NCBI GenBank assembly: GCA_044892505.1
Contig: CM097882.1
Location: 552,306,737-552,360,000, forward strand
Reading direction: 5' to 3'
Source: Schmidtea nova
Lineage: Eukaryota
DNA: 53,264 nt
Part shown: positions 35,640 to 52,110 of the stretch, one piece after another
Layout: every line of letters starts with the position of its first letter
How positions within the stretch are numbered: the stretch's first letter is position 1
The notes under the pieces: model-generated
What the model was told of the DNA's origin: nothing
The model's database searches: none
Seen by the model: only the letters and a program-made list of their open reading frames with translations
Program-made: the position numbers and the translations under genes

Positions 35640-35901
35640 ATGTGAAGCTCCCATACTTTAGTTTTCGATTCCACATGGAATCTTTATAATTGCGAGCTTT
35701 GGAGCTATCGGTGTTGTATAAGGTCAAATTAAAGAAGATCGCAAAGAAATTGTAATTTCTTATGGACCAATGCATTTAATTGTACCACACGAAGATAATT
35801 ATTAGTGCTTCACTACAAAAAAGATTTATTGGTCCTCAATTTTAGATATGGCTTGCTAACTTGTCAGAATATGACTACGAATTACAATATTGGAAAGGAG
35901 A
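35640..35901 (+). pseudogene. Decayed Gypsy RNase H, left part, split by the Polinton
   Basis: EAPIL...AIGVV*GQIKEDRKEIVISYG and PQF*IWLANLSEYDYELQYWKG, continuing at 51404. Confidence 0.75.
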
Positions 35902-36526
35902 AGTAGATAGTTATGAGGAGCATGACTCATCAAAATTACGTCATAATTACGTAATATTTCGTGACCCCCCCCCCTCCCCCCTCCCCCCGATTTTTTTTTT
36001 GATGGCGTAATCGATGACGTAATTTTAAATTCAAATTTTAAATTTAAATTTCCAAAGGTCAAATAAGGTCAAACCTTCAAACAATGGTATCATTCGAAAG
36101 GTCTTGGAGAGGTCTATCCAATGGTCATACCCTCGAAGGTTTATGGAGGGTCATTGACCTTCAAAGGGTCAAAAACCTTCAACTTTTTTCAAACCTTATA
36201 ATATACATATCAAACAAAAGGTAATTGAGAGGTAAGTATGATGGTCATACTTTCAAAGGTGTATGGAGTGTCCTGAACCTTGAAAGGGTCAAAAACCTTC
36301 AACCTTTTTTAATTCTTATAATATGTACATCAAACAAAAGGTAATTGAAGGGTGAGTATAATGGTCATACTATCTACTAACTAACTAATTTTTTGTACAG
36401 AGATAACTTGTGTGTGTTTAAGAAAAATTACTGTACTCATTGAACGCGCGTGAAACGCGCGTTCTTCTTCCTTGTTGTATAAGATAAATCACAGTACGCA
36501 TTGAACGCGCGTGAAACGCGCGTTCT
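35902..36526. repeat. Left TIR of the Polinton (continues into gap)
   Basis: Reverse complement of 50790-51403. Contains a C-tract, 120-bp direct repeats (36121-36370) and 61-bp units with CG palindromes. Confidence 0.97.
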
Positions 36527-37040
36527 NNNNNNNNNNNNNNNNNNNNNNNNNNNNNNNNNNNNNNNNNNNNNNNNNNNNNNNNNNNNNNNNNNNNNNNNNN
36601 NNNNNNNNNNNNNNNNNNNNNNNNNNNNNNNNNNNNNNNNNNNNNNNNNNNNNNNNNNNNNNNNNNNNNNNNNNNNNNNNNNNNNNNNNNNNNNNNNNNN
36701 NNNNNNNNNNNNNNNNNNNNNNNNNNNNNNNNNNNNNNNNNNNNNNNNNNNNNNNNNNNNNNNNNNNNNNNNNNNNNNNNNNNNNNNNNNNNNNNNNNNN
36801 NNNNNNNNNNNNNNNNNNNNNNNNNAAAAAAAGTTCTGCCAAAAAGTTTACAACAAAATTAAAAAATCAATTTGAAAATAAAAATTATATTTCTAATATC
36901 ACAGAGTTTAAACCCAAATGGAATATCGAGTTCGTAAATTTCAGAAACTGGCTGGCAAGTTATAATTATTTGATGTTCTGACGAGATTGTTAAAACTACA
37001 AATAATAATAATAATAATAAAAATAATAATAAAAAATTAC

Positions 37041-50080: not shown

Positions 50081-50789
50081 TTTTAATAAATTTTGTTATT
50101 TGAAAATGTCTTTTTTATTTTGTGTCNNNNNNNNNNNNNNNNNNNNNNNNNNNNNNNNNNNNNNNNNNNNNNNNNNNNNNNNNNNNNNNNNNNNNNNNNN
50201 NNNNNNNNNNNNNNNNNNNNNNNNNNNNNNNNNNNNNNNNNNNNNNNNNNNNNNNNNNNNNNNNNNNNNNNNNNNNNNNNNNNNNNNNNNNNNNNNNNNN
50301 NNNNNNNNNNNNNNNNNNNNNNNNNNNNNNNNNNNNNNNNNNNNNNNNNNNNNNNNNNNNNNNNNNNNNNNNNNNNNNNNNNNNNNNNNNNNNNNNNNNN
50401 NNNNNNNNNNNNNNNNNNNNNNNNNNNNNNNNNNNNNNNNNNNNNNNNNNNNNNNNNNNNNNNNNNNNNNNNNNNNNNNNNNNNNNNNNNNNNNNNNNNN
50501 NNNNNNNNNNNNNNNNNNNNNNNNNNNNNNNNNNNNNNNNNNNNNNNNNNNNNNNNNNNNNNNNNNNNNNNNNNNNNNNNNNNNNNNNNNNNNNNNNNNN
50601 NNNNNNNNNNNNNNNNNNNNNNNNNNNNNNNNNNNNNNNNNNNNNNNNNNNNNNNNNNNNNNNNNNNNNNNNNNNNNNNNNNNNNNNNNNNNNNNNNNNN
50701 NNNNNNNNNNNNNNNNNNNNNNNNNNNNNNNNNNNNNNNNNNNNNNNNNNNNNNNNNNNNNNNNNNNNNNNNNNNNNNNNNNNNNNNNN

Positions 50790-51403
50790 AGAACGCGCGT
50801 TTCACGCGCGTTCAATGTGTACTGTGATTTGTCTTATACAACAAGGAAGAAGAACGCGCGTTTCACGCGCGTTCAATGAGTACAGTAATTTTTCTTAAAC
50901 ACACACAAGTTATCTCTGTACAAAAAATTAGTTAGTTAGTAGATAGTATGACCATTATACTCACCCTTCAATTACCTTTTGTTTGATGTACATATTATAA
51001 GAATTAAAAAAGGTTGAAGGTTTTTGACCCTTTCAAGGTTCAGGACACTCCATACACCTTTGAAAGTATGACCATCATACTTACCTCTCAATTACCTTTT
51101 GTTTGATATGTATATTATAAGGTTTGAAAAAAGTTGAAGGTTTTTGACCCTTTGAAGGTCAATGACCCTCCATAAACCTTCGAGGGTATGACCATTGGAT
51201 AGACCTCTCCAAGACCTTTCGAATGATACCATTGTTTGAAGGTTTGACCTTATTTGACCTTTGGAAATTTAAATTTAAAATTTGAATTTGAAATTACGTC
51301 ATCGATTACGCCATCAAAAAAAAATCGGGGGGAGGGGGGGTCACGAAATATTACGTAATTATGGCGTAATTTTGATGAGTCATACTCCTCATAACTATCT
51401 ACT
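50790..51403. repeat. Right TIR of the Polinton (preceded by gap)
   Basis: Reverse complement of the left TIR, with about five transitions and homopolymer length differences. Confidence 0.97.
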
Positions 51404-52110
51404 AGGAGATGATCATGAAATTGCAGACGGATTATCACGAATTAAAAGTGATTTTGTTCACAATGTCCAATAAAACATAAGGAGGCCAAAAAGTCATTGC
51501 CAAAGTAGAGTACATAAGCAGTCTACTTGGAAATATAAGAATTTTGGAAACAATTAAAATTAAACAAAAAGGAGACTTTGTTTTTAAAGAAATCACGGAA
51601 TTGTTGAATCATGATAGAAGTTTTGCGTCGGATAAAGTCAAACAAAGTAAATTATGTAAATAAATGCAATGACGTTGTATAAAAGATAGATTGTTATCGA
51701 TCATAGAAAATAATAAAATATTAATGTTAGTTACCCAAAGCTATGTGTAGAATTTGGTTGATCAAATTCACACAGAATTGTGTCATTTAAGTATTAAGAA
51801 TAAGTTATTTTACATGAAAGACTATTTACTGCAATAATACGAAGGAGAACATCGCCAAATTTATGTTTCCTTCAGGCAAGCATCAGGATAATAAATAATA
51901 AATACAAAATACAAAATATTCAAACAGTTTGTATAGATTTCCTAATTTTCCAAATTGGAGTTAATCGATTTTCCGGATCTTGTTTGCAACCTTGGATAAT
52001 TTTATCAGACATACCAATGTTTATCATTTGCAAAGGTATCCCTCGAAAAGTTGAGGAAAATACTGCATATTTATCATTGATAATTATATTGTTACCCAAA
52101 TTCATGTTGA
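51404..52110 (+). pseudogene. Decayed Gypsy RNase H end and integrase remnant, right part
   Basis: GDDHEIADGLSRI completes the ADALSR-like motif. A weak integrase-core-like stretch follows near 51940-52100. Confidence 0.6.

What the first reader, a model, noticed from the sequence alone, without database searches (positions are those of the whole stretch)
35896..51409. Complete-boundary endogenous virus with an intact virion module
Both termini, the 6-bp TSD and TIRs differing by roughly 1% are visible. MCP, minor capsid, ATPase, protease and integrase all look intact and are tightly packed with ATGA overlaps. Only PolB is broken. A recent, possibly still active family is likely, and this copy could be mobilised or packaged in trans.
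Basis: partly seen in the sequence, partly recalled or inferred. Interest (0 to 1): 0.7.

Follow-up and report, generated by a model that had tools for sequence, protein, structure and literature searches.

The report
Intron-bearing Polinton with its own TBP
A young copy of a virus-like jumping element (a Polinton) has a broken DNA polymerase gene, but its integrase and protease genes are split by short host-type introns and it carries a stripped-down version of the cell's promoter-binding protein TBP, which probably switches on its capsid genes.

Summary
Window 35,902-51,403 is a Polinton/Maverick. It has an AGGAGA target-site duplication, AGTAG...CTACT ends, and terminal inverted repeats (TIRs) differing by 5 substitutions in 614 nt plus two indels. 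Both TIRs run into N gaps. The major capsid protein folds as a double jelly roll. PolB has a frameshift and a stop, and contigs from three runs of the organism mostly differ from this copy at both places, so the lesions look private to it in a many-copy family. (1) Integrase and protease are not single ORFs: they are split by 44-nt and 39-nt GT-AG introns. The protease intron sits at the same position in 2 of 8 relatives examined; the two closest integrases break at the same codon. (2) A 156-aa minimal TBP gene belongs to a family of over 100 Polinton-linked proteins. (3) A TATAAACA box lies 33-42 nt before four genes of the virion block and is kept in relatives (ATPase 13 of 13), rarely before TBP (2 of 39). 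No splicing, expression or virions were shown. The scan noted TBP-bearing and intron-bearing Polintons before, on other DNA. Verdict: new variant of a known kind.

The parts
35896..35901 (+). left copy of the 6-bp target-site duplication AGGAGA
   Evidence: the flanks read as two halves of one Ty3/Gypsy-like coding frame that meet at the TSD (motif recalled)
35902..36526 (+). left TIR, visible part: starts AGTAG, 120-nt subrepeats, two 23-nt GC-rich hairpins just before the gap
36527..36825 (.). N gap hiding the inner end of the left TIR
37041..41110 (-). protein-primed family B DNA polymerase with an HNH/endonuclease VII-like insert; broken by a frameshift near 39,315 and an in-frame stop at 39,177-39,179
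   Evidence: Pfam DNA_pol_B_2 E 2e-30; PHROG endonuclease VII E 0.002; breaks; read with X at the breaks it is 1,355 aa and aligns across both breaks to L009 (46%) and L011 (52%)
41756..42251 (-). candidate 4-exon gene for a small Asn-rich protein; introns 42,199-42,148, 42,072-42,027 and 41,876-41,788; lower end approximate
   Evidence: splice signals and open exon frames; no homologue in the 55 loci; weakest gene model
42576..42995 (-). 139-aa conserved gene, possibly DEDD/RNase H-like fold (lead only); TATAAACA 38 nt upstream
   Evidence: homologues in 14 of 55 loci; Atlas: unnamed clusters at 0.96, Maelstrom at 0.85
43015..43413 (-). adenain-like maturation protease; exon 1 43,413-43,409, intron 43,408-43,370 (39 nt, phase 2), exon 2 43,369-43,015; His, Asp and Cys catalytic motifs present
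   Evidence: Pfam Peptidase_C5 E 1.5e-5; same intron position in L009 and L011; alignment
43457..44677 (-). major capsid protein, double jelly roll, 406 aa; TATAAACA 42 nt upstream
   Evidence: 138 homologues; model pLDDT 89.6; Foldseek to iridovirus MCP E 1e-16 and to PBCV-1, Sputnik and mavirus MCPs
44674..45066 (-). 130-aa PZ-like basic protein (name recalled)
   Evidence: homologues at the same place in 6 of 55 loci
45059..46054 (-). putative minor capsid (penton) protein; ORF from the first ATG at 46,081
   Evidence: 30-34% identity over most of its length to genes at the same place in L009, L011 (two copies), L028 and L043; no Pfam or PDB hit; fold not tested
46051..47117 (-). retroviral-type integrase with C-terminal chromodomain; exon 1 47,117-46,730, intron 46,729-46,686 (44 nt, phase 1), exon 2 46,685-46,051
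   Evidence: Pfam rve E 2e-8, Chromo E 8e-5, below its cut-off
46948..47181 (-). 77-aa ORF overlapping the integrase start in another frame; Met-Gly start followed by Cys-Cys, a possible lipid-anchored protein
   Evidence: similar Met-Gly...Cys-Cys ORFs in L001, L007, L011, L014, L021, L043 and L048
47185..47721 (-). 178-aa PW-like protein with a hydrophobic C-terminal tail (name recalled); TATAAACA 35 nt upstream
   Evidence: homologues in 9 of 55 loci
47742..48365 (-). A32/FtsK-type packaging ATPase, 207 aa; TATAAACA 33 nt upstream
   Evidence: Pfam Pox_A32 E 1.4e-6; 38-75% identical homologues in 16 of 55 loci
48458..48928 (+). minimal TBP-like protein, 156 aa: complete second repeat, first repeat without helix H1 or a long H2
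   Evidence: Pfam TBP E 2e-18; 107 relatives; model pLDDT 95.6; Foldseek to solved TBPs E 2e-9, TM 0.63-0.70
49036..49396 (+). Cys-rich small gene; exon 1 49,036-49,054, candidate intron 49,055-49,103 (49 nt), exon 2 49,104-49,396
   Evidence: no homologue in the 55 loci
49631..50080 (+). 149-aa conserved gene of unknown function, often next to TBP
   Evidence: 17 of 55 loci; 103 family representatives; no Pfam, PDB or Atlas assignment
50127..50789 (.). N gap hiding the inner end of the right TIR
50790..51403 (-). right TIR, visible part; ends CTACT
51404..51409 (+). right copy of the target-site duplication AGGAGA

Best explanation
This is one recently inserted copy of a many-copy Polinton/Maverick (polintovirus) family in an AT-rich eukaryote, probably an invertebrate animal; the host was not identified. 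Shown: boundaries, gene set, the double jelly-roll MCP, the TBP fold, and two PolB lesions that most other copies of the family lack. Inferred (about 90% for the protease, 80% for the integrase): both genes are functional and spliced by the host spliceosome, the lineage having gained short AT-rich introns at different times. Inferred (about 55%): host factors transcribe the TBP-like gene first, and its product then binds the TATAAACA box before the packaging and capsid genes and recruits host Pol II machinery, giving an early-to-late switch like the viral TBP of beta/gammaherpesviruses but with a much smaller protein. From general knowledge of Polintons: the element is copied as a linear molecule by protein-primed synthesis from the TIRs and reinserted by the integrase with a 6-bp duplication. 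This copy cannot supply its own polymerase.
For: TSD, ends and TIRs. MCP fold. PolB lesions not shared: the 12, 3 and 4 contigs with another letter at the stop carry all covering depth in three runs; 84/49/98% of depth differs at the frameshift. Depth: one flank contig has 49.8 against 15,791 for a PolB contig with no differences in X1, and 12.2 against 2,360 in X3 (a rough hint, not a copy number). Protease intron at the same codon and phase, with a different sequence, in L009 (37 nt) and L011 (39 nt), whose proteases are 47-55% identical; absent in 6 other loci. The two closest integrases (80% and 82%) end right after the same QTDLG codon, and the three form a clade (support 84/80). Of 23 GTAAG sites inside the element, the 5 followed by at least 90% A+T are 5 of the 6 proposed introns. 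TBP: 107 relatives; 25 of 55 TBP loci, and 15 of 20 loci of 3 kb or more, carry a core Polinton gene; F38, E95, F113, N4 and N6 are invariant in 43 sequences. Box: six TATAAACA in the element, all on the coding strand of the virion block (simulated mean 0.66, maximum 3 of 300); ATAAAC upstream of ATPase 13 of 13, MCP 5 of 7, orf139 8 of 11, TBP 2 of 39.
Against: No RNA evidence of splicing or expression was obtained. The integrase is continuous in 7 of 7 loci that span the site and in 15 of the 20 proteins checked; the DNA behind P0108 and P0109 was not seen; and the 44-nt stretch is bounded by a 10-nt direct repeat, as a plain insertion would be. The clade is not strongly supported. The box is not enriched in the whole window (12 matches against 7.96 expected; 12 of 100 shuffles reach 12), the motif and region were chosen after the fact, and several loci are near-duplicates. 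The box is rare before integrase (1 of 6) and PZ-like (1 of 6) and present in 3 of 6 for the minor capsid gene. All loci were fetched through TBP, so there is no TBP-less control. The interior is separated from both ends by N gaps. Runs X1-X3 are one study and may include the source of the window.
Confidence: 0.75

Rival explanations
1. Ordinary decaying Polinton copy: the 44-nt integrase stretch is a disrupting insertion whose GT..AG ends come from a duplicated AGGT, so this copy has lost both polymerase and integrase.
For: A 10-nt direct repeat bounds the stretch; 7 of 7 loci and 15 of 20 proteins are continuous there; PolB of the same copy is broken twice.
Against: The two nearest relatives break at the same codon with different tails. 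The stretch has GTAAG and TTTAG ends, an all-A+T core and the same size class as the conserved protease intron. The exon frames fit in phase 1.
Confidence: 0.15
2. The TBP-like gene is a passenger, or acts as a decoy that competes with host TBP for TFIIB or promoters; TATAAACA is just a TATA variant read by host TBP.
For: The protein lacks both helices of the first repeat and has no conserved counterpart of one of the four intercalating phenylalanines (residue roles recalled). No TFIIB-like ORF was recognised in this element or, by eye, among 82 neighbouring ORFs in the loci. No TBP-less control was available.
Against: The DNA-facing residues and the acidic stirrup are invariant or nearly so across 43 sequences at 44-70% identity. 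The gene is kept through many rearrangements. The box is placed before virion-block genes and mostly not before TBP itself.
Confidence: 0.3
3. The interior is a scaffolding or consensus artefact: a collapsed or different copy placed between the two TIRs, with the PolB lesions as assembly errors.
For: N gaps on both sides of the interior, each starting at the same TIR position; many-copy family; the window's letter at the PolB stop is seen in none of the three runs; no long piece spans the stretch.
Against: At some places the window's letter is seen at about the depth of the flank contig in X1 (about 47 at 44,268 and 31 at 47,600, against 49.8), as expected of one real copy. The two flanks belong to one insertion site (TSD; frame continuity). 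The gene-level findings hold for the family either way.
Confidence: 0.25

Closest known systems
Polintons/Mavericks of animals (adintoviruses, eupolintoviruses): Barreat and Katzourakis 2021, PMC8097293; Jeong et al. 2023, PMC10748475; Starrett et al. 2021, PMC8502044 (passages read; section 3.4 of Starrett read whole)
   Same: pPolB, rve integrase with chromodomain, packaging ATPase, adenain protease, double jelly-roll MCP, TIRs, 6-bp TSD, 15.5 kb. An HNH insert in pPolB is described for nematode and oomycete pPolB2.
   Different: Core genes are described as intronless in vertebrate elements and in a nematode Maverick, where only cargo genes carry introns; here integrase and protease are intron-split. 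The termini are AGTAGA...TCTACT rather than (AGT)2 or (AG)3. TBP gene and shared upstream box.
MELD viruses with a 'TBP' label in Starrett et al. 2021, Fig. 5 legend (PMC8502044; section read, figure not seen)
   Same: A TBP-like gene in a mid-sized linear dsDNA element with an adintovirus-like PolB.
   Different: A label only, in a section on non-animal datasets; the text read describes no family, reduced fold or promoter motif.
Beta/gammaherpesvirus viral TBP (KSHV ORF24, EBV BcRF1): PMC7498053 (abstract and outline read), PMC4922670 (listing)
   Same: Works-like model: a viral TBP mimic directs host Pol II to late genes.
   Different: The herpes protein is large, has its own Pol II-binding domain and needs five other viral proteins; this one is 156 aa, is closer to cellular TBP than to any viral TBP model and has no recognised partner.
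Introner-invaded polinton-like elements of dinoflagellates (PMC12166617; abstract and passages read)
   Same: Spliceosomal introns inside full-length polinton-like elements.
   Different: There, most were gained after integration from active host introners; here the protease intron position is shared, with diverged sequences, by elements at about 50% protein identity, so it is inherited within the viral lineage.
TBP homologues of Nucleocytoviricota (BFVD models)
   Same: Virus-encoded TBP fold (best E 3e-8).
   Different: The best matches are 189-550 aa at 12-20% identity; none belongs to the 144-160-aa family found here.

Membership tests
Polinton/Maverick | TIRs of 100-1,500 bp and a 5-8-bp TSD | tested here: met
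   at least 614-nt TIRs, 6-bp AGGAGA; range
Polinton/Maverick | length 13-25 kb | tested here: met
   15,502 nt including two N gaps
Polinton/Maverick | protein-primed family B DNA polymerase | tested here: met
   Pfam DNA_pol_B_2 E 2e-30; present but broken in this copy
Polinton/Maverick | retroviral-like integrase | tested here: met
   Pfam rve E 2e-8; D, D and E motifs present; intron-split
Polinton/Maverick | packaging ATPase and adenovirus-like protease | tested here: met
   Pox_A32 E 1.4e-6, Peptidase_C5 E 1.5e-5; catalytic residues aligned
Polinton/Maverick | double jelly-roll major capsid protein | tested here: met
Polinton/Maverick | single jelly-roll minor capsid protein | tested here: inconclusive
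   conserved gene at the expected place; no Pfam, PHROG or PDB hit; not folded
Polinton/Maverick | intronless core genes (typical in described elements; a description, not a defining criterion) | tested here: not met
   integrase and protease interrupted by GT-AG introns
Polinton/Maverick | virions or extrachromosomal linear genomes | not testable with these tools
   only contigs were available
TBP family | two-repeat saddle fold | tested here: met
   Foldseek E 2e-9, TM 0.63-0.70 over about 170 columns; first repeat reduced
TBP family | four intercalating phenylalanines and the TFIIB-binding acidic stirrup (residue roles recalled) | tested here: inconclusive
   F38, F97, F113, E93 and E95 conserved in 41-43 of 43 sequences; the column near the fourth Phe is variable
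TBP family | binds a TATA-like box and nucleates Pol II initiation | not testable with these tools
   motif placement only
Herpesvirus-type viral pre-initiation complex | large TBP mimic with its own Pol II-binding domain plus five partner proteins | tested here: not met
   156-aa protein with no extra domain; definition. Works-like analogy only.
Spliceosomal introns | GT-AG ends, frame-compatible exons, conserved position with diverged sequence | tested here: met
   protease; integrase: (indirect)
Spliceosomal introns | removal from RNA | not testable with these tools
   no RNA holder listed

The most novel reading that the evidence does not exclude
A widespread lineage of Polintons has its own early-to-late transcription switch: a TBP reduced to little more than the DNA-binding saddle and the TFIIB-side stirrup, reading a viral TATAAACA box. 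The same lineage is gaining spliceosomal introns in core genes while still replicating (old in the protease, recent and clade-limited in the integrase), so its integration and virion maturation depend on host splicing and ORF-based surveys score it as dead.
Probability: 0.45. Interest if true: 0.75.

Novelty: new variant of a known kind. Interest (0 to 1): 0.55.

Why it matters
A complete Polinton with a broken polymerase is ordinary: 134 intact vertebrate elements and 266 full-length nematode elements are on record. The additions matter. How Polintons control their genes is essentially unknown, and a 156-aa TBP with a matching box gives a small, directly testable system and a natural minimal TBP. 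Introns in core genes mean that surveys defining 'intact' by uninterrupted ORFs miss or misjudge such lineages. An intron limited to one clade and bounded by a short direct repeat is a candidate case of recent intron gain. I did not find the TBP family, the box or inherited core-gene introns described in the papers reached by six searches and a 'late promoter' search. The library lacks most subscription papers, figures were not seen and supplements were not read.

Tried and rejected
No genome is held for this window, so copies could not be counted in an assembly. No RNA holder was listed; this is no evidence on expression. Viral contigs gave no relative for TBP or MCP in four scans. The cluster look-up that might have named hosts could not be made. 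The flank contig reaches only 27 letters into the TIR, below the 31 needed to count as bridging. A programmed frameshift at the integrase break was rejected: the extra 44 nt have stops in all three frames. An intron covering the PolB breaks was rejected: the stretch between them codes for a conserved Cys motif and aligns to relatives. My impression that orf149 is an OB-fold single-strand DNA-binding protein got no support; it was not folded. The Gypsy reading of the flanks got no Pfam hit on the two short pieces and only a 10-residue match (E 0.75) to the window's own Gypsy element, so it rests on a recalled motif and frame continuity. No host gene could be modelled; four AT-rich GTAAG..AG stretches of 44-93 nt outside the element are unverified as introns. 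The window's TIR matched none of the 55 loci. Run X5 (soil metagenome, share 0.11) holds short pieces with 0-17 differences: a related element, from one sample only.
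Full report
Boundaries. AGGAGA lies at 35,896-35,901 and 51,404-51,409, and the element between starts AGTAG and ends CTACT. The visible TIR arms (625 and 614 nt) differ by 5 substitutions and two indels of 10 and 1 nt. Both arms run into N gaps (299 and 663 nt) at the same position, just after two GC-rich 23-nt hairpins, so the inner TIR ends are unseen and the interior is only scaffolded to the ends. Translated separately, the left flank ends and the right flank begins in one frame through the TSD, with a motif I recall from the RNase H end of Ty3/Gypsy pol. That supports one insertion site, but Pfam did not confirm it on such short pieces.

Gene set. Pfam names pPolB, adenain-like protease, rve integrase, A32-type ATPase and TBP among the 14 proteins scanned. 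The 406-aa ORF has 138 relatives, most of them of the same length. Its model (pLDDT 89.6) matches iridovirus, PBCV-1, Sputnik and mavirus major capsid proteins (best E 1e-16). The minor capsid assignment rests on position and conservation only. This is a Polinton/Maverick by the features listed in PMC10748475 and PMC8097293 (passages).

PolB. It has a frameshift near 39,315 and an in-frame stop at 39,177-39,179. Read with X at the breaks it aligns across both to two relatives. Four of five listed runs were laid on 35,130-50,120. In the three runs of organism A, all covering depth differs from this copy at the stop, and 84%, 49% and 98% differs at the frameshift. The lesions are therefore private to this copy or are assembly errors; contigs drop rare variants, so these cannot be told apart. 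A flank contig has depth 49.8 (X1) and 12.2 (X3), against 15,791 and 2,360 for interior contigs with 0-1 differences, and 37,794 contigs of 88-100% likeness were laid in X1. This points to a large, diverse family, though depth is not a copy number and the three runs are one study.

Introns. The integrase is split by a 44-nt stretch with GTAAG and TTTAG ends and an all-A+T core, in phase 1 inside the QTDLGKEF motif. The protease ATG is followed after five bases by a 39-nt stretch of the same kind. Of 11 loci with a protease hit, 8 were examined at the start: L009 and L011 have a different GT-AG sequence (37 and 39 nt) at the same codon and phase, and six more distant loci have none. The integrase is continuous in 7 of 7 loci spanning the site. 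Of 36 proteins found with exon 1, 20 were checked: 15 continue, the two closest (80% and 82%) stop right after the same codon with tails that fit a GT start, and 3 end or jump for unclear reasons. The three split forms group together in a 28-row tree with support 84/80, below the tool's strong mark. The stretch is bounded by a 10-nt direct repeat, which fits both gain by duplication and a plain lesion. Four more candidates lie in two accessory genes without homologues. Five of the six introns are the only 5 of 23 GTAAG sites followed by at least 90% A+T; this is partly circular, since I looked for AT-rich stretches. Relatives show other introns: one in the TBP gene of L043, and a GT..AG match before orf149 in 14 of 18 hits by a loose pattern, about 10 of them clean by eye. 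No RNA was available.

TBP. The ORF at 48,458-48,928 has 107 relatives, mostly 144-165 aa where complete. A profile fetched 55 metagenome loci; 38 carry another gene of this element, 25 a core Polinton gene, and 15 of the 20 loci of 3 kb or more do so. The model (pLDDT 95.6) has a complete second repeat and a first repeat of four strands without helix H1 or a long H2. It matches solved TBPs at E 2e-9, better than any viral model. N4, N6, F38, E95 and F113 are invariant and E93, F97 and Q67 nearly so in 43 sequences. By my recall of yeast TBP these correspond to DNA-contacting residues, three of four intercalating phenylalanines and the TFIIB-binding stirrup, while the lost helix is the surface used by several regulators. 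No TFIIB-like gene was recognised here.

Promoter box. Six TATAAACA sites lie in the element, all on the coding strand of the virion block: 33, 35, 42 and 38 nt before ATPase, PW-like, MCP and orf139, and 93 and 101 nt before two others. The simulated mean for that block is 0.66, maximum 3 of 300. In distinct upstream regions of relatives, ATAAAC occurs before ATPase 13 of 13, MCP 5 of 7, orf139 8 of 11, minor capsid 3 of 6, integrase 1 of 6, PZ-like 1 of 6 and TBP 2 of 39; 18 of 39 TBP upstreams have a canonical TATA. Against this: there is no enrichment over the whole window, the test is post hoc, and there is no TBP-less control.

Mechanism. Shown: anatomy, folds, conservation, private lesions. 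Inferred: splicing of integrase and protease by the host, and TBP-directed late transcription. From general knowledge: protein-primed copying and integrase-mediated insertion. Not shown: expression, virions, mobility.

Literature. Core genes are called intronless in PMC8097293 and in 10.1101/2022.07.12.499685 (passages). Introner insertions in polinton-like elements of dinoflagellates are described in PMC12166617 (abstract and passages). TBP appears as a figure-legend label in PMC8502044 (section 3.4 read) and its preprint (passages). Term searches in 10.1101/2024.03.25.586562 and 10.64898/2026.10.13.758929 found no TBP or TATA, and PMC12220804 speaks only of group I introns (passages). The herpesvirus analogy comes from PMC7498053 (abstract and outline). 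Figures and supplements were not seen and may annotate such genes. The scan itself holds 14 notes with 'Polinton TBP' and 53 with 'Polinton intron', of which 8 each were shown, and none on look-alike DNA; these are unchecked leads, not support.

Verdict. The finding as written is an ordinary, well-bounded young Polinton copy, with one factual gap. The lineage it belongs to is a new variant: intron-split core genes, a minimal TBP and a candidate late promoter. Interest 0.55.

Noticed in passing
window 12,356-18,073: Ty3/Gypsy element (minus strand, gag-pol ORFs 13,349-17,557) with two 300-nt LTR copies that are 100% identical, so a very recent insertion.
   Followed up: no
window 46,948-47,181 (-): Small overlapping ORF with a Met-Gly start and Cys-Cys, kept in 7 loci; a possible myristoylated and palmitoylated virion protein (signals recalled).
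   Followed up: partly
window 36,443-36,526 and 50,790-50,873: Two 23-nt GC-rich hairpins 61 nt apart in each TIR (z -5 for the left stretch); both assembly gaps begin right after them, so more repeats may be hidden.
   Followed up: partly
window 40,589-40,704: 18-nt tandem repeat, 6.4 copies, in frame within the N-terminal part of PolB.
   Followed up: no
window 41,150-41,780: About 600 nt of very AT-rich DNA (17% GC over 41,001-42,000) with several short tandem repeats upstream of PolB; no ORF.
   Followed up: no
L011:5652-7684; L033:1479-2644: L011 has two tandem minor-capsid-like genes; L033 has two tandem orf149-like genes.
   Followed up: no
L004, L011, L043, L024, L030, L038, L040, L041: Host-like cargo beside TBP in relatives, judged by eye: a dual-specificity phosphatase (L004), a ubiquitin-conjugating enzyme (L011), a RING protein (L043) and signal-peptide leucine-rich-repeat proteins (L024, L030, L038, L040, L041).
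   Followed up: no
window 52,271-52,945; 19,266-19,658; 21,935-22,834; 25,842-27,611: Mariner-type (Pfam HTH_48 hit) and hAT-like transposase fragments; the window is almost all mobile DNA.
   Followed up: no
window 30,340-31,029; 8,212-8,956: A 300-nt perfect tandem duplicate with period 390, and a 750-nt near-palindromic element.
   Followed up: no
P0111: Integrase relative that jumps from QTDLG straight to the last residues of the protein: an internal deletion starting at the same codon as the intron.
   Followed up: no
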